Positions 1 through 6,195 of a DNA stretch of 6,195 bases are shown piece by piece. The notes under the pieces were generated by a model, which was given only the letters and a program-made list of their open reading frames with translations, ran no database searches and was not told the origin of the DNA. Source of the stretch: a virus (taxonomy: Duplodnaviria > Heunggongvirae > Uroviricota > Caudoviricetes). Both the position numbers and the translations under genes were made by a program. Location of the stretch: the IMG/VR virus record IMGVR_UViG_2728369186_000004; one strand, given 5' to 3'. The stretch's first letter is position 1; every line of letters starts with the position of its first letter.

Positions 1-93
1 TGTTCTGAGGTGAGCATATCACCTCTGTTCAGGTGGCCAAATTCAGTAAACCACTTCAGAACCTTATTTCATGCAAATGAGATCTACAATTAG
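1..93 (+). CDS. 3' end of an upstream gene (partial, unknown product); frame 1 open from window edge to TAG at 91-93
   Basis: Frame 1 has no stop from position 1 until TAG 91-93 (...CSEVSISPLFRWPNSVNHFRTLFHANEIYN*), overlapping the tail-fibre start by 23 nt. Only 30 codons visible, no motif recognised. Confidence 0.3.
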   Translation, partial: CSEVSISPLFRWPNSVNHFRTLFHANEIYN

Positions 94-1480
94 CTGGGAC
101 GATCAGGACAAAGAAGCACTGGAAGACCTGATTGGTTTACAAGACCGCTTAGATGAAACTATCGCGGATGCTATTGCTCAAGCTGGCGCTAATGCCGATG
201 CTAAAATTGATGCAATGCATAAGCAAATCACTACCGAAACAGGGCAGACGGTCCAAGCCTCAGCCAATACCTTAAAGAGTCTGATTGCTACCAGCGAGCA
301 AGCTAGCTCCACTAAGATTGATCAGGTTAAAGCTGAACTGAAAGGCGATATCACCAAAGAAGTTAGTGCATCTGCTACTACCCTGAAACAAGCTATTGCT
401 ACCAGTGAAGCAGCAAGCGCAAGCAAGATTGACCAAGTTCGGGTAGAAATGGATGGCAAGATTGCTGGTGTGAATCAGGAAGCGGACGTTAAGATCGATG
501 CTTTGAAGGGAACCATTAACAGCAAATACAATCTAGCAGTTAATGCAGATGGTCGCGTGGCTGGCATTCACATGAGCGCAACCAACGATCCGGCGCAACC
601 GACGAGAATCATCTTTAATGCTGATAAAATCGCGGTAGCTCCACAGAACGGATCGGAAGTATGCCCGTTTGGTATCGAAGGTAACAAGGTTTATCTCGAT
701 AATGCGATGATTCGTAATGCTGCAATTGGTACAGCCCAGATTAATGATGCGGCGATTACCACGGCTAAAATCGGCAATGCTGCAATTAACAGCGCGAAGA
801 TTCAGGACGGGGCAATCACTAACGCGAAGATCGTAAACGGTGCAATTGATAACGCTAAAATCGGTAACTATATCCAGTCTTCCAACTGGAACGGATCGAC
901 CGGATGGCATATCAACAAGAACGGGTCCGCTACGTTCATGAATGCAACCGTTAAAGGTAATATCACTGCTGATTCTGGTACTCTGAACAACGTCACGATT
1001 AACTCTAGCTGTGTTATTAAGGGTATGCTTGAAGCTACTCAGGTTAAGGGTGATTTCGTTAAGGTGATTGGACGTAAGTTCCCGCATCGTGATGTTAACG
1101 TTGATAATGGTTATGCTGGTTATCCACAGGGAACGGTCACTGTTCGCGTTGAAGATGATCACAAGTTCGATCGTCAAATCGTTATTCCGGCTGTTAGTTT
1201 TGGTGGATTGCGAGCGCGTGAAGGGTCGAACAATAATACGTTTTACGACACCTGTCGCCTGATTGTTCGTAAGAATGGGTCAGAGTTGTATAATAGGGCG
1301 TATGGCGGTAATACTGGTCTTTACTCAGGTGTTATTGATATGCCAGCGGGTAAAGGTGCTGTGACCTTGACCTTTGAAGTGCAATCAAGCGCAATCAACA
1401 ACTGGACGCCTAGCACATGGATCAGTGATTTAACTGTAATGGTAACTAAAAAAGCAACTACCGGTATTACTGTTTCTTAA
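71..1480 (+). CDS. Phage tail fibre / receptor-binding protein (469 aa)
   Basis: Complete ORF ATG 71 to TAA 1478-1480. N-terminal Ala/Ser/Thr/Gln-rich segment with KID-containing repeats of ~37 aa (KIDAM, KIDQV, KIDQV, KIDAL). Central array of 10-residue repeats IRNAAIGTAQ / INDAAITTAK / IGNAAINSAK / IQDGAITNAK / IVNGAIDNAK, typical of tail-fibre shafts. Gly/Asn/Thr-rich C-terminal ~200 aa consistent with a receptor-binding tip. No obvious SD; start probably coupled to the overlapping upstream ORF. In-frame stop at 47-49 rules out 5' extension in this frame. Confidence 0.75.
   Translation: MQMRSTISWDDQDKEALEDLIGLQDRLDETIADAIAQAGANADAKIDAMHKQITTETGQTVQASANTLKSLIATSEQASSTKIDQVKAELKGDITKEVSASATTLKQAIATSEAASASKIDQVRVEMDGKIAGVNQEADVKIDALKGTINSKYNLAVNADGRVAGIHMSATNDPAQPTRIIFNADKIAVAPQNGSEVCPFGIEGNKVYLDNAMIRNAAIGTAQINDAAITTAKIGNAAINSAKIQDGAITNAKIVNGAIDNAKIGNYIQSSNWNGSTGWHINKNGSATFMNATVKGNITADSGTLNNVTINSSCVIKGMLEATQVKGDFVKVIGRKFPHRDVNVDNGYAGYPQGTVTVRVEDDHKFDRQIVIPAVSFGGLRAREGSNNNTFYDTCRLIVRKNGSELYNRAYGGNTGLYSGVIDMPAGKGAVTLTFEVQSSAINNWTPSTWISDLTVMVTKKATTGITVS
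707..871 (+). repeat. Tandem degenerate 30-bp (10-codon) coding repeats, 5-6 copies, inside tail fibre gene
   Basis: Protein residues ~213-267 form consecutive decapeptides with pattern I-x-[ND]-[AG]-A-I-x-x-A-[KQ]; the underlying DNA shows the matching 30-nt periodicity (e.g. atcggcaatgctgcaattaacagcgcgaag / attcaggacggggcaatcactaacgcgaag). Confidence 0.6.
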
Positions 1481-1498
1481 AAATTTAATTTTAATAAT

Positions 1499-1540
1499 TA
1501 ATCCCGCTTAATTCTTTAGAGTTAGGCGGGATTATTTTTA
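1499..1540 (+). terminator. Rho-independent terminator after tail fibre gene
   Basis: Inverted repeat taATCCCGCttaa (1499-1511) / ttagGCGGGATta (1522-1534) with one G-U position and a ~10-nt loop, followed by tttta T-run (1535-1540), 19 nt after the tail-fibre stop. Confidence 0.6.
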
Positions 1541-1586
1541 TCTAAATAATTTTGCCATTAAACTATATAAAAATATCGGGGGCGTA

Positions 1587-1865
1587 ATGACTGAAATTAT
1601 ATATGGCGGTATCGGTGTTATCGCCTTAATTTGTGGTGGTCTTTGGAGACTTCACCGAAATCAATTAGCAACTGAAAATAGATTGTCGAAATTGGAATCC
1701 AGCGACGCATTGTTAAACCAGAAGTTTGAGACGATGCAAAGTAACCATGACCAGATCGCCGAGAGAGTTTATCGCATGGAACAAACACTACACGGTATAG
1801 AGAAGAAAGTGGTTGCGATGGACGCCAAATTTGACCAAGTTCTCGACATACTCAAACAAAAATAA
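1587..1865 (+). CDS. Small membrane protein, N-terminal transmembrane helix plus coiled-coil (92 aa); possible holin/lysis-associated or exclusion protein
   Basis: Strong SD cGGGGGcg (1577-1583) 4-9 nt before ATG 1587. Residues 4-20 IIYGGIGVIALICGGLW hydrophobic, followed by RLHRNQ (positive-inside suggests N-out/C-in). Remainder has heptad-like charged/hydrophobic periodicity (coiled coil). No family recognised with confidence. Confidence 0.55.
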   Translation: MTEIIYGGIGVIALICGGLWRLHRNQLATENRLSKLESSDALLNQKFETMQSNHDQIAERVYRMEQTLHGIEKKVVAMDAKFDQVLDILKQK

Positions 1866-1886
1866 TAATAATAAAGGGGTGAATAT

Positions 1887-2057
1887 ATGAAGAATAAACT
1901 TAAGAAATATTTTGGTTATCTCTTGATTATCGCCCTCACTTATAACGTAGCAATTAGACCTCTGCTAACGTCCTTTGGGCTTGAACTCCCGGCTATGACC
2001 GTGGATGAACAATTGCTAAGGACACTGGCGGGGGTCTTTTCGTTATTAGGGGGATAA
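1887..2057 (+). CDS. Small membrane protein (56 aa), not in ORF track; holin-like candidate
   Basis: ATG 1887 preceded by SD aaaGGGG (1873-1879, 7-nt spacer). Translation MKNKLKKYFGYLLIIALTYNVAIRPLLTSFGLELPAMTVDEQLLRTLAGVFSLLGG: Lys-rich N-terminus, one clear hydrophobic helix, no Cys (so not a lipoprotein). TAA 2055-2057 lies 1 nt before the ATG of the next gene (coupled). Confidence 0.45.
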   Translation: MKNKLKKYFGYLLIIALTYNVAIRPLLTSFGLELPAMTVDEQLLRTLAGVFSLLGG

Positions 2058-2058
2058 T

Positions 2059-2742
2059 ATGTCAACCAGTGTCAATAAACGTAACGCTCTAAGGACTAAG
2101 AAAGCGTTGAGGCAATGGTCTGAAAAGGCAACCGATACATTCGAAAGGGCAATAGGGGAAGGGGCGATCTTTGCTTCCAGAGCACTCCAGAAGAAGATTA
2201 ACAAGAATGTTGATAGACCTACTCGATGGACTCAGCAAGCTGTAGGTAATACCAACTACAAGAACCGATCAGGGACGAAACACCAAATCTTCATCAAGGG
2301 CGCAAGGGATAAGGACAAGAAGATCGGCAGTCAGGATGACTATCTGAAACACTATTTCGATGGGGGCAAAATCAATAAGCTAGTTCCAATCGCCAACGGC
2401 AGGGTCTTAGACTCCCACGGGAACATTAAGGCCATTAAAGGCGGTAAGATGATGCGTAACATCGAAAACGGCAACTTCATCAAGGTAGAGAACAAGGAAG
2501 GGACTTTTATCATGAAGAAGTACAAGCCTAAGAAATCCCGAACCAAACGCGCTAGGAATGGATCGGCGGTGGCAAAACGTCGCTTAGAGAAACGCACACA
2601 GAAACAGAGTAAGCGAATCGTTGCCGTTAAGTCGGATAAAATTTCTACTCGTTATTCGACGCTAGGATCGTGGGAAAGCAACGAAGCAATGATGCTTGAA
2701 AACATCAATAAGCACATTAAATCGCGCATGAGATACGTTTAA
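2059..2742 (+). CDS. Lysine/arginine-rich basic protein of unknown function (227 aa); possible nucleic-acid-binding protein
   Basis: ATG 2059 with SD aGGGGGa (2048-2054). No hydrophobic segment. Very high K/R content including KKYKPKKSRTKRARNGSAVAKRRLEKRTQKQSKR. Tightly coupled to the preceding small membrane gene. No family recognised. Confidence 0.55.
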   Translation: MSTSVNKRNALRTKKALRQWSEKATDTFERAIGEGAIFASRALQKKINKNVDRPTRWTQQAVGNTNYKNRSGTKHQIFIKGARDKDKKIGSQDDYLKHYFDGGKINKLVPIANGRVLDSHGNIKAIKGGKMMRNIENGNFIKVENKEGTFIMKKYKPKKSRTKRARNGSAVAKRRLEKRTQKQSKRIVAVKSDKISTRYSTLGSWESNEAMMLENINKHIKSRMRYV

Positions 2743-2751
2743 TCCATAAAT

Positions 2752-2775
2752 ACCCTCATAGAATCTTATGGGGGT
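2752..2775 (+). promoter_or_regulatory. RNA hairpin sequestering the Shine-Dalgarno of the downstream 115-aa gene
   Basis: ACCCTCATA (2752-2760) pairs with TATGGGGGT (2767-2775): 9 bp with one G-U, 6-nt loop. The paired right arm contains the GGGGG SD (2770-2774) of the ATG at 2781. No T-tract follows, so not a typical terminator. Confidence 0.35.
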
Positions 2776-2780
2776 ATAAC

Positions 2781-3128
2781 ATGGCTAAAAATATTTTCAC
2801 TGAATTTCCTACTTATCCGGTCGACCAGCTTTCCGGTATTTTTATCAATGGCATTAGCCCAGAATCCATGACACATGATTTTGAGGCGAAGAGAGTTAAA
2901 CATAAACAATATAAAGAATGTATCCGCGATCATGAAAAAGGGACCGTGTTTTGTGTCGCTACATTGGCTAAACGTCCTAAATATCGTTTTCGTGTAGGGC
3001 AAGAAGTCGATGTAGTTAATCCTTATAGTTTTAACTGTCTGGGTGATGCACGCGCGGTGTGTGTAGGCACAACTAATTACTACATTAAAGGACTCAGATT
3101 TACCGGGTATATAATGGAATACATCTAA
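2781..3128 (+). CDS. Hypothetical protein (115 aa), unknown function
   Basis: ATG 2781 with GGGGG SD 6 nt upstream; ORF ends TAA 3126-3128 and is followed by a strong intrinsic terminator. Protein has 4 Cys and several His but no motif I can assign. Confidence 0.5.
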   Translation: MAKNIFTEFPTYPVDQLSGIFINGISPESMTHDFEAKRVKHKQYKECIRDHEKGTVFCVATLAKRPKYRFRVGQEVDVVNPYSFNCLGDARAVCVGTTNYYIKGLRFTGYIMEYI

Positions 3129-3142
3129 CTCTAATAAATACA

Positions 3143-3169
3143 AGCGACCAATTTCGGTCGCTTTTTTAT
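3143..3169 (+). terminator. Rho-independent terminator between the 115-aa gene and the Zn-ribbon gene
   Basis: AGCGACC (3143-3149) / GGTCGCT (3156-3162), perfect 7-bp GC-rich stem, loop aatttc, followed by TTTTTATT (3163-3169). Confidence 0.7.
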
Positions 3170-3180
3170 TTGGAGGAATC

Positions 3181-4218
3181 ATGGAGATTTTATTTGCTGA
3201 ATATATCAACTACACCGGATTTACAAGAAAAACGCCTCTTGACTATGAACCTATTGCCATTAAACGTTGTGATGAGTTGGGGTACATCTATAACGGTTTT
3301 GTTGTGCCGTGGAAAGGGCAACATACACCCGTTTCTATAACCTGCAAGAAACATAGCACAACGCGAACAATTGCTTTCAAAACTCTTAAAAAACAAGGTG
3401 CGTGTCTTGAATGCTATAAAGAATCATTAAAACTTCCTAAGAAAAAGAATAGAGATAAGGAAGCTGTACTAGATAAAGCAAGCAATGTGCTGGAACGCAA
3501 AGATATGGTTTTAGTTGGATTGTTAGAAGATTATAAAGGATTAGACACAAAAGTTTCTTATAAGTGCAATTGCTGTGATACTGCATACGAAACCATAATC
3601 ACTAGAATCATAAACGATGATGCTGGGTGTCGTCATTGTGGGTCAATTAAGAGAGGAATCAATAAGAGAAAACACACAGACGACGAATGGATGGATCTAA
3701 TTGAGCATGAATGCAGGAACAAACGACTTGAATTAATAGAACAACCTAAATCTCCTATATTGTCAACATCAAAAATACACATCAAATGTGAAAAAGGTCA
3801 TCTTTCTGATTCTTTGGTAGTTTATGGTTTAGTGTATGAAAACTTAGGCTGTCCATGTTGTTCTAAAAATGGTTATAACAGAAGTAAGTCGGGAGTTTTC
3901 TACGTTCAACAGGTCGGAGATTATATAAAATATGGAATAACAAACCATCTAAACCCACAAAAGCGAGTAACTCAACAAGCTAGGGAATCAGGGTTAAAAC
4001 ACAAGTTATTGTGGTATATAACGTTCGGTGACGGAAAAGTTGCCAATGACCTAGAGTATTCCGTAAAACATAACATAGGAAATCACGCTGCACCAAAAGA
4101 ACTAATCCCAGACGGATATACAGAAACATGTGACATAACCAAAGAAGCGCAGATTAGAAAAATGGCAATGGATTTTTGTAAAAACTCCAACAACTATAAA
4201 ATTACATATAGGGGGTAA
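3181..4218 (+). CDS. Protein with three tandem ~74-aa zinc-ribbon repeats and a C-terminal GIY-YIG/T5orf172-like domain (345 aa); candidate homing-endonuclease-like or DNA-binding nuclease-family protein
   Basis: SD GGAGG (3172-3176), ATG 3181. Metal-ligand sets at exactly 74-residue spacing: C55-x2-H58...C75-x2-C78; C129-x-C131C132...C150-x2-C153; C203-x3-H207...C224-x-C226C227, with flanking similarity (WKGQHTPVSITC / YKGLDTKVSYKC). C-terminus has GVFYVQQVGDYIKYGIT (GIY...YIG-like paired motifs), an Arg ~10 residues later (PQKRVTQQ) and downstream Glu (LEYSVKH, GYTETCD). Stop TAA 4216-4218 is 1 nt before the next ATG. Function inferred from motif spacing only. Confidence 0.55.
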   Translation: MEILFAEYINYTGFTRKTPLDYEPIAIKRCDELGYIYNGFVVPWKGQHTPVSITCKKHSTTRTIAFKTLKKQGACLECYKESLKLPKKKNRDKEAVLDKASNVLERKDMVLVGLLEDYKGLDTKVSYKCNCCDTAYETIITRIINDDAGCRHCGSIKRGINKRKHTDDEWMDLIEHECRNKRLELIEQPKSPILSTSKIHIKCEKGHLSDSLVVYGLVYENLGCPCCSKNGYNRSKSGVFYVQQVGDYIKYGITNHLNPQKRVTQQARESGLKHKLLWYITFGDGKVANDLEYSVKHNIGNHAAPKELIPDGYTETCDITKEAQIRKMAMDFCKNSNNYKITYRG

Positions 4219-4219
4219 T

Positions 4220-4573
4220 ATGTTAAGTAAGCATTTTTCTCGCAAGGAATTTAAATGTAAATGCGGAAAATGTGATTATGATACAATCGACGCTGAATTA
4301 CTGGTGATTCTTGAGGATGTACGCGAACACTTTGGGAAACCAGTGATTATTAACAGCGGGAACCGTTGTCCGAATCATAATAAGAATGTTGGCGGTGCAA
4401 CCAATAGCTATCATGTTCGAGGCCGTGCGGCTGACATATCAGTGAAAGGAATTTCTCCTGATATTGTTCATGCTTATCTTGATGGGAAGTATCCTACTCA
4501 ATACGGCTTAGGAAAATATAAAACCTTTACGCATATTGATTCCAGATCAAAAAAATCACGGTGGAATGGATAA
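4220..4573 (+). CDS. Peptidase M15-family (zinc D-Ala-D-Ala carboxypeptidase-like) cell-wall hydrolase; probable endolysin (117 aa)
   Basis: ATG 4220 with GGGGG SD (4211-4215) inside the 3' end of the upstream gene. Motifs FSRKEF...SGNRCPNHNKNVGG...SYH-x6-D (H-VRGRAA-D) and C-terminal FTHID match the metal-binding signature of Peptidase_M15-type phage lysins. No signal peptide or TM segment. Confidence 0.75.
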   Translation: MLSKHFSRKEFKCKCGKCDYDTIDAELLVILEDVREHFGKPVIINSGNRCPNHNKNVGGATNSYHVRGRAADISVKGISPDIVHAYLDGKYPTQYGLGKYKTFTHIDSRSKKSRWNG

Positions 4574-4763
4574 AACAAAAGCGCCTCTGGTGGGCGCTTT
4601 TTTGTTAGAATATGCTGGCGACGTTAGCTATATTTCTGACCATTTTTTCATTATAGACAAATATACCGCAGACGATAAAGTCGTTTTTGACGAAGTAGAT
4701 CCGTCTCTGGTTGAAGTAATGAAAGAACCGGAAGACCTAGAGCTTGATTTAAGCCAATTATAG
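4566..4763 (+). CDS. Questionable small acidic ORF (65 aa from ATG 4566)
   Basis: Track ORF 4536-4763 overlaps the peptidase gene and reads through the terminator hairpin at 4577-4604. The only ATG (4566) has a poorly spaced SD. C-terminus highly acidic (DEVDPSLVEVMKEPEDLELDLSQL). Listed for completeness; probably not a real gene. Confidence 0.2.
   Translation: MDKTKAPLVGAFLLEYAGDVSYISDHFFIIDKYTADDKVVFDEVDPSLVEVMKEPEDLELDLSQL
4577..4604 (+). terminator. Rho-independent terminator after the peptidase gene
   Basis: aaaaGCGCC (4577-4585) / GGCGCtttt (4593-4601), loop tctggtg, then T-run to 4603; begins 4 nt after the TAA at 4571-4573. Confidence 0.55.
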
Positions 4764-5107: not shown

Positions 5108-6064
5108 TTAAATTCCAAATTCTTGTAATGGACCTGGTATTTCTTCTTCTGGTTTCCAGTTCTTATCTGTCAGCATGTCTAAACATGGATGCAGAACAAG
5201 CCCGTTACTCTCCAGAATCTGCCTATCATTGATAGTCTTCAAATCAACGAAGATCCGGCCTTTCCTCGGTCCTCTTGAATTTTCTATTACAACTCTCTGG
5301 GTCTTGCCATCGATGTATTCCAGTACAAACAAGTTTTTGTACTTGTCAATCCTGCTACACCCGATCCGTTTTAGAGCTTGCTTAATCTTAAACCGGACCT
5401 TAATGCGATCCTCGTTGTAAACATCTTCTAAATCAAATTCTGCGAGCTTCTCCCAGCCTTGAGAGTCAACAGAATACATTTCCTCTTCTGCCATCTTAAT
5501 TTGATTGTAGAGTGTTTCACGCTCGCTATTGAGGGTAGTAATCTGATCGGCTAGCTCCTTCGTTGCTCCTGTCATAGCAGAAAGGGTAATCAGGTTATCA
5601 ATCTTGCGTGATATTTCATCAATCTGTACTTTCAAAGCCGGAACCGGATTAGCCTTATCTTCAGCAATCCAGATTTTATCAGCCAGCAATTGCAATACAG
5701 CTTTCTCTAATTGGTCGCCGCGAAAACTCCAGTTTGTATGCACACATTCAATACGACTAGAGCGCATTGCATCGCATGAATAACGATATTGGTTAGGCCG
5801 TCTGTTTGTTCCTTTCACCTTAACCATAGCGGAACCGCAATGTTCACATTTCAATAGACCAACACCACTAAGCAAGGGAATAGGTTTAACTTCTTCTTTG
5901 TCTCCAAAGTTACATGCTCTAACACCAATGCTTTTCTTAAGGTGATAAAACTCAGCGTCATCTAGCACACGAGGATAATAATCCTTTAACTCATACTTAA
6001 CGCCATCTACAGAGATTTCCTTGATACCAATCAAAGCGCGGGTATGGAACAACCTTTCAATCAT
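5108..6064 (-). CDS. Large serine recombinase, C-terminal portion only (end of recombinase domain, zinc ribbon, coiled-coil); N-terminal catalytic domain not encoded in frame, so possibly truncated or a pseudogene
   Basis: Zinc-ribbon motif LLSGVGLLKCEHCGSAMVKVKG...YRYSCDAMRSSRIECVHTNWSFRGDQLEKAVLQLL (C73, C76, C97, C107), followed by a long predicted coiled-coil, typical of large serine recombinases. No resolvase-type catalytic domain precedes it. The frame stays open upstream of ATG 6064 to an in-frame TAG at 6167-6169, and that stretch (LNATYTPPPAASHKRHSNWSRA-MIERLFHTRALIG) still resembles the recombinase domain (W-x4-[VI]-x-R-[IL]...Y/L-x-G). Confidence 0.7.
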   Translation of the reverse strand: MIERLFHTRALIGIKEISVDGVKYELKDYYPRVLDDAEFYHLKKSIGVRACNFGDKEEVKPIPLLSGVGLLKCEHCGSAMVKVKGTNRRPNQYRYSCDAMRSSRIECVHTNWSFRGDQLEKAVLQLLADKIWIAEDKANPVPALKVQIDEISRKIDNLITLSAMTGATKELADQITTLNSERETLYNQIKMAEEEMYSVDSQGWEKLAEFDLEDVYNEDRIKVRFKIKQALKRIGCSRIDKYKNLFVLEYIDGKTQRVVIENSRGPRKGRIFVDLKTINDRQILESNGLVLHPCLDMLTDKNWKPEEEIPGPLQEFGI

Positions 6065-6195
6065 TGCCCGTGACCAGTTTGAATGCCTCTTGTGACTTGC
6101 GGCTGGTGGTGGTGTGTATGTCGCGTTAAGGTGATCTGATCCTACCCACGTAATATGGACACAGGCCTAAGCGAGGTTCTTGTTTTCAAATTGTT

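What the first reader, a model, noticed from the sequence alone, without database searches (positions are those of the whole stretch)
191..871. Tail fibre carries two nested repeat systems
Residues ~41-150 contain three to four KID-containing ~37-aa repeats (nt ~191-520) and residues ~213-267 contain five or six decapeptide repeats encoded by 30-bp units (nt ~707-871). Such in-frame tandem repeats are substrates for slippage or recombination that change fibre length and host range, and they can confuse assembly of this region.
Basis: seen in the sequence. Interest (0 to 1): 0.35.

Follow-up and report, generated by a model that had tools for sequence, protein, structure and literature searches.

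The report
Structural repeats in truncated tail-tip gene
The two repeat patterns are real but old, protein-level building blocks (a coiled-coil shaft and a beta-helix spacer) of a lambda-J-type phage central tail fibre, and the gene that carries them is a dead remnant cut off by an insertion sequence, so this is ordinary.

Summary
Both periodicities exist. There are five clean decapeptides (xAAIxxAKIx, nt 719-868, plus one degenerate unit before). There are two full 37-residue units (nt 254-475), flanked by two weak KID-bearing fragments. They lie one after the other, not nested.

The ORF is not a complete tail fibre. It is codons 786-1258 of a lambda-J-like tip attachment gene whose 5' part has been replaced by an IS911-type element ending at nt 58.

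The 37-mers lie in the predicted alpha-helical shaft. Its hydrophobic period is 3.7 residues, so 37 residues make 10 helical turns. The decapeptides are pairs of A-x-I pentads placed between the beta-prism and the receptor-binding domain. Lambda J has none of them, HK97 and T1 have one, and this lineage has five.

DNA copies are only 50-73% (30-nt units) and 58% (111-nt units) identical. The longest shared exact word is 12 nt, and third codon positions are nearly random. Fifty E. coli prophage copies (87-97.5% identical) show no length change. Orthologues down to about 41% identity keep exactly five units. Slippage, host-range switching and assembly confusion are therefore not supported. Copy number changed only on deep evolutionary scales. 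This is a new member of a known kind, of low interest.

The parts
1..58 (-). Terminal 58 nt of an IS3-family element of the IS911/ISEc52 type. The terminus (...CACTTCA) is at nt 58 and the IS body lies left of the window.
   Evidence: 100% matches to IS ends in phage, plasmid and chromosome records. In L009 the same 58 nt abut an orfA that starts MKKRNFSAEFKRES on the opposite strand. An annotated ISEc52 sits next to an identical end.
59..1480 (+). 3' remnant (codons 786-1258) of a lambda-J-like tip attachment / central tail fibre gene. The ATG at 71 is an internal Met codon.
   Evidence: The frame is open from nt 59 (EPYFMQMR...). It aligns end to end with residues 786-1258 of the intact 1258-aa protein of L002 and with the 1248-aa protein of L001.
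101..529 (+). Predicted alpha-helical shaft (ORF residues about 11-153), the counterpart of the lambda gpJ AHS and the F-pyocin coiled coil.
   Evidence: AlphaFold2 gives one continuous helix with pLDDT 74-92. The hydrophobic period is 3.7 residues. The segment aligns with the coiled-coil parts of the T1 fibre 9l9p_S and the F2-pyocin fibre 25vf_A.
254..364 (+). 37-residue unit 1 (QASANTLKSLIATSEQASSTKIDQVKAELKGDITKEV).
365..475 (+). 37-residue unit 2 (SASATTLKQAIATSEAASASKIDQVRVEMDGKIAGVN).
   Evidence: 21/37 residues and 64/111 nt identical to unit 1. Lag-111 z is 6.9.
518..718 (+). Non-repeat beta domain (top of the beta-prism, core of Pfam Phage_Tail_Tip) that separates the two repeat systems. 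Its last 30 nt (689-718) are a degenerate decapeptide.
   Evidence: Pfam PF09327, E 1.2e-22, best stretch residues 142-239. It aligns to lambda gpJ 876-933.
719..868 (+). Five decapeptide units (ten A-x-I pentads). This is a probable intertwined trimeric beta-helix spacer and an insertion relative to lambda J.
   Evidence: The last unit aligns with FIKNALIQDGAIDNAKIGNVIQS of the F2-pyocin fibre.
869..1072 (+). Lower fibre / neck (residues 267-334) leading to the receptor-binding domain.
   Evidence: Aligns to lambda gpJ 946 onward and to A8 gpJ.
1073..1477 (+). Ig-like receptor-binding domain (Ig_GpJ_C).
   Evidence: Pfam PF12421, E 3.8e-34. PDB 9wca has E 9.6e-56. 9wcb_F is 50% identical with TM 0.63.
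1499..1544 (+). Terminator-like hairpin plus T run just after the fibre gene.
   Evidence: 16-pair stem with 6 G-C pairs, followed by TTTTTATCTA.
6137..6195 (.). End of an IS3 copy (TGATCCTACCCACG...) that bounds the remnant on the right and truncates the recombinase gene.
   Evidence: Exact match to the end of an annotated IS3 in L009, 1502-1560.

Best explanation
Nt 191-871 encode two different architectural repeats of the distal, trimeric central fibre of a lambda-J-type tip attachment protein.

(1) The 37-residue units lie in the alpha-helical shaft. Hydrophobic residues recur every 3.7 residues, so one unit is exactly 10 helical turns, and the 33-residue version seen in T1 and in P0001 is 9 turns. 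A unit can therefore be added or lost without breaking the coiled-coil register. Each unit should change shaft length by about 5.5 nm (inferred). In homologues this shaft refolds into beta-prism strands on receptor binding: partly in lambda, completely in F7 pyocin. That refolding opens the tail tip. The same role is inferred here.

(2) The decapeptides are pairs of A-x-I pentads placed between the beta-prism and the receptor-binding domain. They most likely form an intertwined three-chain beta-helix in which each pentad is one face. Five units would then give roughly 5 nm of rigid spacer (inferred).

Both arrays are ancient, fixed in number within this lineage, and maintained by selection on the protein. 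They are not active DNA-level tandem repeats.

In this window the gene is non-functional. An IS911-type element replaces the first 785 codons, and the prophage fragment is also cut by IS3 at its other end.
For: Shown:
- Domain content and best solved relatives.
- Truncation by the IS and in-frame continuity with intact orthologues.
- Periodicity statistics.
- Unit divergence, a 12-nt maximum exact repeat and randomised third codon positions.
- A long confident helix over residues 11-153 with a 3.7-residue hydrophobic period.
- The decapeptide array is an insertion relative to lambda-type J.
- Unit counts are 0 (lambda type), 1 (HK97, T1-like ISF001, PSA28, Smarc4), 2 (PMBT28) and 5 (window, DCP80, P0149, P0239).
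- The spacer is exactly 50 residues in 13 of 13 proteins that matched both anchors.
- 50 of 50 E. coli copies have an unchanged span.
- Orthologous units are more alike than paralogous units, for example 8.4 versus 5.5 of 10.
- P0121 lacks exactly one 37-mer, and T1 has 33-residue units.

From the literature:
- The domain order of lambda gpJ is FNIII, AHS, CSF, RBD, and the AHS partly turns into beta-sheet (PMC11101478).
- The F2 pyocin fibre has a long AHS (PMC13455828).

The SxSxxMxxLxS signature occurs 7 times in residues 11-153, against 2.4 +/- 1.5 in shuffles (21/2000 shuffles reach 7).
Against: - The AlphaFold model is a monomer, and its confidence over the decapeptide zone is low (pLDDT about 50-60). 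The trimeric beta-helix reading therefore rests on homology to one unit of the pyocin fibre and on the pentad pattern.
- The fold-switch motif test used my own loose residue classes and is only modestly significant.
- Length figures in nm are geometric estimates, not measurements.
- Whether the 5' part of the gene survives on the far side of the IS is unknown, because the window ends inside the IS.
Confidence: 0.78

Rival explanations
1. One reading: the in-frame repeats are active substrates for slippage or unequal recombination that vary fibre length and host range, and they can confuse assembly.
For: Copy number differs among distant J proteins. One 37-mer is missing in the 70%-identical orthologue P0121. 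The T1 fibre has two nearly identical 33-residue copies, which indicates a recent duplication in that lineage. The same pentad repeat forms arrays of tens of units in other tail proteins.
Against: In this gene the units are 50-73% (30 nt) and 58% (111 nt) identical. The longest exact direct repeat is 12 nt and third codon positions are about random. Tandem Repeats Finder finds nothing. 50 of 50 E. coli copies have an unchanged span. 13 of 13 proteins that matched both anchors have exactly five units. There is no concerted evolution.
Confidence: 0.07
2. The decapeptide array is a classical pentapeptide-repeat domain: a single-chain right-handed quadrilateral beta-helix with four pentads per coil, rather than a three-chain beta-helix.
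For: The A-x-I pentad equals the A(D/N)LXX pattern. There is weak sequence similarity to Np275/Np276 and designed pentapeptide proteins (E 0.01-0.1). Larger arrays of the same repeat hit Pfam Pentapeptide_4.
Against: No pentapeptide family reaches E <= 1 on this protein. The array sits on the three-fold axis between two trimeric prisms of a J-type fibre. Ten pentads would give an uneven 2.5 coils. The low-confidence monomer model shows a 15-residue (three-sided) strand period, not a 20-residue one.
Confidence: 0.1
3. ORF 71-1480 is a genuine stand-alone fibre or receptor-binding gene, split from the hub as in phages that encode fibre and tip separately, and it is still functional.
For: It starts with ATG and has a terminator-like hairpin after it. 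Split arrangements are mentioned for F-pyocin.
Against: Homology to intact single genes of 1248-1258 aa runs in frame through the ATG up to the IS terminus at nt 58/59. No Shine-Dalgarno-like sequence is visible upstream. The neighbouring recombinase is also IS-truncated. All 55 E. coli copies lie in genes annotated as phage tail tip proteins, and the two examined in full are intact single genes.
Confidence: 0.04
4. The apparent repeats are only compositional bias (Ala/Ile/Lys/Asn-rich sequence).
For: The region is low in complexity, and Tandem Repeats Finder is silent.
Against: Sharp in-register peaks appear only at lags 30/60/90 and 111, with z of 6-7 against codon shuffles that keep composition. 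Neighbouring lags (108, 114) sit at or below background. Unit positions are conserved across orthologues.
Confidence: 0.01

Closest known systems
Bacteriophage lambda gpJ (tip attachment protein J; PDB 8IYK, 8XCK, 8XCJ) and the 'A8 gpJ' variant (9WCA, 9WCB)
   Same: It has the same C-terminal order: helical shaft, beta-prism (Phage_Tail_Tip), neck, Ig-like RBD (Ig_GpJ_C). Residues 278-469 align at E 1e-36 to 1e-55. These are the top Foldseek hits.
   Different: Lambda has no decapeptide unit: it reads FLKRLTAPTITSGG and then goes straight on. Its shaft is much shorter, about 53 residues (809-861), against about 143 here. The window copy lacks the hub and FNIII part because of the IS.
Central fibre protein of F-type pyocins (F7: PMC12874032; F2 PyoF10: PDB 25VF, PMC13455828)
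   Same: It has a long three-stranded coiled-coil shaft followed by a beta-prism seed and a short intertwined beta-helix. Window residues 57-219 align to 25vf_A 994-1156. The last decapeptide aligns to DGAIDNAKIGNVIQS.
   Different: The pyocin has one decapeptide unit, not five, and has no Ig_GpJ_C RBD. Fold switching is shown for F7 but only inferred here.
Phage T1 tail fibre (PDB 9L9P chain S) and HK97 gpJ
   Same: The same shaft repeat motif is present (xASxxxLRExIATExEAxSxxIDQLKAxI), and there is one decapeptide before IGNxIQSNNW.
   Different: The T1 unit is 33 residues (9 turns) with two almost identical copies. The window unit is 37 residues (10 turns) with two diverged copies and five decapeptides.
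Pentapeptide-repeat proteins (Pfam Pentapeptide families; e.g. Np275/Np276, PDB 2J8K)
   Same: Tandem pentads have a small residue at i-2 and Leu/Ile at i.
   Different: No family threshold is reached. The context is a three-fold fibre, so a quadrilateral single-chain helix is unlikely.

Membership tests
Lambda-J-like tip attachment / central tail fibre protein | Phage_Tail_Tip (PF09327) domain | tested here: met
   E 1.2e-22 and 80.6 bits, against a cut-off of 22.
Lambda-J-like tip attachment / central tail fibre protein | C-terminal Ig-like receptor-binding domain (Ig_GpJ_C, PF12421) | tested here: met
   E 3.8e-34. PDB 9wca and 8xcj alignments. Foldseek hits.
Lambda-J-like tip attachment / central tail fibre protein | N-terminal hub domains and FNIII domains in the same polypeptide | tested here: not met
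   They are absent from the window: the IS terminus is at nt 58 and the ORF corresponds to residues 786-1258 only. They are present in the intact orthologues of L001 and L002 (1248 and 1258 aa). The window therefore holds a gene fragment of this family, not a complete member.
Lambda-J-like tip attachment / central tail fibre protein | Position downstream of the tape measure and small tip genes in a siphovirus tail module | tested here: met
   This holds in the orthologous prophages: tail tube, tape measure, three small genes, then the J-like gene. It is not visible in the window itself.
Fold-switching coiled-coil central fibre (F7 pyocin type) | Long trimeric coiled coil immediately N-terminal to a beta-prism seed | tested here: met
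   The monomer model gives a 143-residue helix with pLDDT 74-92. The hydrophobic period is 3.7. It is followed by the Phage_Tail_Tip domain. Trimer state was not tested.
Fold-switching coiled-coil central fibre (F7 pyocin type) | Recurrent SxSxxMxxLxS strand signature | tested here: inconclusive
   7 matches against 2.4 +/- 1.5 in shuffles (21/2000 reach 7), using residue classes I chose from the paper's description.
Fold-switching coiled-coil central fibre (F7 pyocin type) | Actual coil-to-prism transition on receptor binding | not testable with these tools
   This needs cryo-EM of both states or multi-state trimer prediction.
Pentapeptide-repeat family | Match to a Pfam pentapeptide model above threshold | tested here: not met
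   No pentapeptide family reaches E <= 1 for the window protein. There are only weak PDB sequence hits at E 0.01-0.1.
Slippage-prone (contingency-type) coding tandem repeat | Near-identical DNA units | tested here: not met
   Units share 15-22 of 30 nt and 64 of 111 nt. The longest exact repeat is 12 nt. Tandem Repeats Finder finds nothing.
Slippage-prone (contingency-type) coding tandem repeat | Copy-number polymorphism among close relatives | tested here: not met
   50 of 50 E. coli copies at 87-97.5% identity have a span equal to the query span. 13 of 13 proteins that matched both anchors have a 50-residue array.

The most novel reading that the evidence does not exclude
The 37- and 33-residue units may be modular 'fold-switch cassettes'. 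Each would be a whole number of coiled-coil turns (10 or 9) that refolds into a fixed set of beta-prism strands. Under this reading, phages tune the stroke and stored energy of tail-tip opening by adding or losing cassettes, and they set the reach of the receptor-binding domain independently with the number of decapeptide beta-helix units (0, 1, 2 or 5).
Probability: 0.15. Interest if true: 0.5.

Novelty: new member of a known kind. Interest (0 to 1): 0.15.

Why it matters
This matters mainly as a correction. The 'tail fibre' is an IS-truncated pseudogene fragment in a decayed prophage. Its repeats are conserved structural modules, not a variation mechanism. Annotators should not call ORF 71-1480 an intact gene, and the real assembly hazard is the flanking IS copies.

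There is also a modest positive point. The comparison gives a clean series of J-type fibres with 0, 1, 2 or 5 decapeptide units and with 33- or 37-residue shaft units that preserve coiled-coil register. This series could guide engineering of fibre length, or tests of the recently described coil-to-prism fold switch.

Tried and rejected
- Tandem Repeats Finder at the lowest score threshold found no array in 191-871.
- Megablast of the window against phage records matched only the IS ends.
- A scan of genome contigs for the exact IS/J junction found nothing, so the source genome and the fate of the 5' gene part remain unknown.
- A literature search for a T1 tail-tip structure paper found nothing in the held library. 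A search for pentapeptide repeats in tail fibres gave nothing specific.
- The SU10 short fibre (7Z4B) was the best solved sequence hit to the decapeptide zone. Its relevant part was itself modelled with AlphaFold, not resolved, so it was not used as structural evidence.
- The 10-residue length difference between the L001 and L002 proteins looked at first like one decapeptide. It lies in the receptor-binding domain, not in the repeats.
- A 70-nt hit that seemed to share the IS/J junction (H91) is an ISEc52 next to ssb, which is unrelated.
- I did not use the second structure job. Only monomers can be predicted here, and a monomer cannot settle a three-chain fold.

Full report
**What is in the window**

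The only long ORF over the finding is 71-1480 (+), 469 aa. Pfam places two domains on it:
- Phage_Tail_Tip (PF09327, E 1.2e-22, best stretch residues 142-239).
- Ig_GpJ_C (PF12421, E 3.8e-34, residues 335-469).

PHROGs profiles for tail fibre / central tail fibre J match only with their C-terminal parts, for example positions 579-901 of a 901-position profile. The best solved relatives are the central fibre of lambda gpJ and an 'A8 gpJ' variant (E 1e-36 to 1e-55 over residues 278-469). These are also the top Foldseek hits for the AlphaFold model.

**The gene is a fragment**

Nt 1-58 match insertion-sequence ends at 94-100% identity in many records. In plasmid locus L009 the same 58 nt are followed, on the other strand, by an orfA beginning MKKRNFSAEFKRES. 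That is an IS911-type element of the IS3 family. An identical end elsewhere is annotated ISEc52. The IS terminus (...CACTTCA) is at nt 58.

From nt 59 the fibre reading frame is already open (EPYF-MQMR...). It aligns without a break to residues 786-1258 of an intact 1258-aa 'phage tail tip domain-containing protein' in E. coli prophages. There the gene follows the tape measure and small tip genes. The ATG at 71 is therefore an internal methionine codon.

At the other end, nt 6137-6195 are an IS3 end. The large serine recombinase at 5108-6064 (-) keeps only its zinc-ribbon part, whereas an intact relative has 559 aa. The window is thus a 6.08-kb prophage remnant boxed in by two IS elements.

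**Checking the observation**

*Decapeptides.* Five in-register units fill residues 217-266 (nt 719-868). One degenerate unit comes before them, and the periodicity is lost after them. DNA identity at lag 30 is 0.62, against 0.33 +/- 0.04 for codon shuffles (z 6.9). Lags 60 and 90 are also high. Lag 15 is weaker (z 3.6), which reflects two A-x-I pentads per unit.

*37-mers.* KID occurs four times, at residues 45, 82, 119 and 140. Only two full units exist, at residues 62-98 and 99-135. They share 21/37 residues and 64/111 nt, and the lag-111 z is 6.9. A profile of the units detects just these two.

The two systems are separated by about 80 residues of non-repeat beta domain, so they are not nested. 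Tandem Repeats Finder sees neither.

**Are they DNA-level repeats that could slip?**

No.
- The 30-nt units are 15-22/30 identical.
- The longest exact direct repeat anywhere in the ORF is 12 nt.
- Identity between units is 0.77 and 0.70 at codon positions 1 and 2, but 0.38 at position 3, close to background.
- In 50 E. coli genomes carrying copies 87-97.5% identical, nt 150-913/960 match as a single piece whose span equals the query span. There are no 30-nt or 111-nt differences.
- The 13 J-like proteins that matched both flanking anchors all have exactly 50 residues between them. These are the window's own protein, its close relatives and orthologues down to about 41% identity.
- Orthologous units are more alike than paralogous ones in every comparison, for example 8.4 versus 5.5 identities per 10. 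The five units therefore predate these divergences and have not been homogenised.

**Copy number on deep time scales**

Copy number did change on deep evolutionary scales.
- Decapeptides: lambda-type J proteins have none. HK97 J, T1-like ISF001, PSA28 and Smarc4 have one. PMBT28 has two. The window, DCP80, P0149 and P0239 have five.
- 37-mers: the 70%-identical orthologue P0121 lacks exactly one unit (a 38-residue gap). P0001 has a 4-residue deletion that makes one unit about 33 residues. The T1 fibre has 33-residue units, two of them nearly identical.
- The same pentad repeat is very widespread. 9134 representative proteins match at E <= 0.001, many with 10-39 stretches. Several of these are phage tail proteins.

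**What the repeats are**

[quoted passage not shown] Part of the AHS becomes beta-sheet after LamB binding (PMC11101478).

In F7 pyocin a 163-residue coiled coil converts completely into a beta-prism. It is followed by a beta-prism base, a short intertwined beta-helix and a narrower prism. Each strand carries an SxSxxMxxLxS signature (PMC12874032). F2 pyocin has a similarly long AHS (PMC13455828).

Window residues 53-219 align to the coiled-coil and prism-seed parts of the T1 and F2-pyocin fibres. AlphaFold2 (monomer) predicts one helix over ORF residues 11-153 at pLDDT 74-92. The hydrophobic period there is 3.7 residues, so 37 residues make 10 turns and 33 residues make 9 turns. This explains why units of these two lengths are tolerated. 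The strand signature occurs 7 times against 2.4 expected (21/2000 shuffles reach 7), which is only suggestive.

The last decapeptide aligns with DGAIDNAKIGNVIQS near the C-terminus of the F2-pyocin fibre. That region corresponds approximately to the intertwined beta-helix zone described for F7. The array is predicted as short beta strands with a 15-residue period, but at low confidence (pLDDT about 50-60).

My reading is that the 37-mers are shaft modules, about 5.5 nm each as coiled coil, and probably part of a fold-switching segment. The decapeptides are layers of a three-chain beta-helix spacer, about 1 nm per unit. The fold assignments and the lengths are inferences.

**Rivals**

- An active slippage or host-range mechanism is contradicted.
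- A single-chain pentapeptide-repeat (quadrilateral) helix is suggested only by weak similarity and fits the three-fold context poorly.
- An intact stand-alone gene is contradicted by the in-frame continuity with full-length orthologues up to the IS end.
- Pure compositional bias is excluded by the sharp lag peaks.

**Verdict**

The 37-mer count is overstated and the systems are not nested. The structural expectation is right. The proposed dynamics and the assembly concern are not supported, and the gene is a dead fragment. This is a new member of a well-known kind (J-type central tail fibres), of low interest.

Noticed in passing
window 1-58 and 6137-6195: The window is a 6078-bp prophage remnant bounded by the ends of two different IS3-family elements: an IS911/ISEc52 type on the left and IS3 on the right. 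Both IS bodies lie outside the window.
   Followed up: yes
window 5108-6136 (-): The large serine recombinase gene is truncated by the IS3 copy. Only the zinc-ribbon / C-terminal part (318 aa) remains. The N-terminal catalytic domain present in the 559-aa relative (L001 13017-14696) is missing.
   Followed up: partly
window 1073-1477: The closest solved relative of the receptor-binding domain is 'A8 gpJ', solved in complex with OmpC of E. coli EDL933 (9WCB, 50% identity). This suggests a porin receptor. The RBD differs by indels between the relatives L001 and L002, while both repeat zones stay unchanged.
   Followed up: partly
window 2059-4218, compared with hits H11-H35: The cargo between the fibre gene and the lysis genes is variable among related prophages. 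It includes a 227-aa basic protein, a 115-aa ORF and a 345-aa Cys-rich protein with a weak CapR-domain hit. Related prophages carry IS2, IS1, GIY-YIG nuclease and DEAD-box helicase insertions.
   Followed up: no
window 1587-2057 and 4220-4763: Lysis-type genes are present: a 92-aa protein with an N-terminal hydrophobic segment plus coiled coil, a 56-aa hydrophobic protein, a Peptidase_M15_3 endolysin (E 3.5e-28), and an overlapping 75-aa ORF.
   Followed up: partly
proteins P0122-P0270 (representative search with window 479-1075): The A-x-I pentad/decapeptide repeat is very widespread: 9134 representative proteins match at E <= 0.001. Some proteins of 2000-4700 aa carry dozens to more than 100 units, for example P0122 with 20 consecutive DAVTTAKIAD-like units. 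Pfam covers these only marginally, through Pentapeptide_4 and the tail of Phage_Tail_Tip.
   Followed up: partly
L003 (Escherichia phage DCP80, PQ671644.1) 244-4002: A record classified as Straboviridae (T4-like, 141 kb) carries a 1252-aa J-like siphovirus-type tip protein with the same five decapeptides. This could be a gene transfer or an assembly or classification oddity.
   Followed up: no
PDB 9l9p_S (phage T1 tail fibre) about residues 908-1005: T1 has three to four 33-residue shaft units, two of them identical over 25 consecutive residues. Recent duplication of this unit therefore does occur in another lineage.
   Followed up: partly
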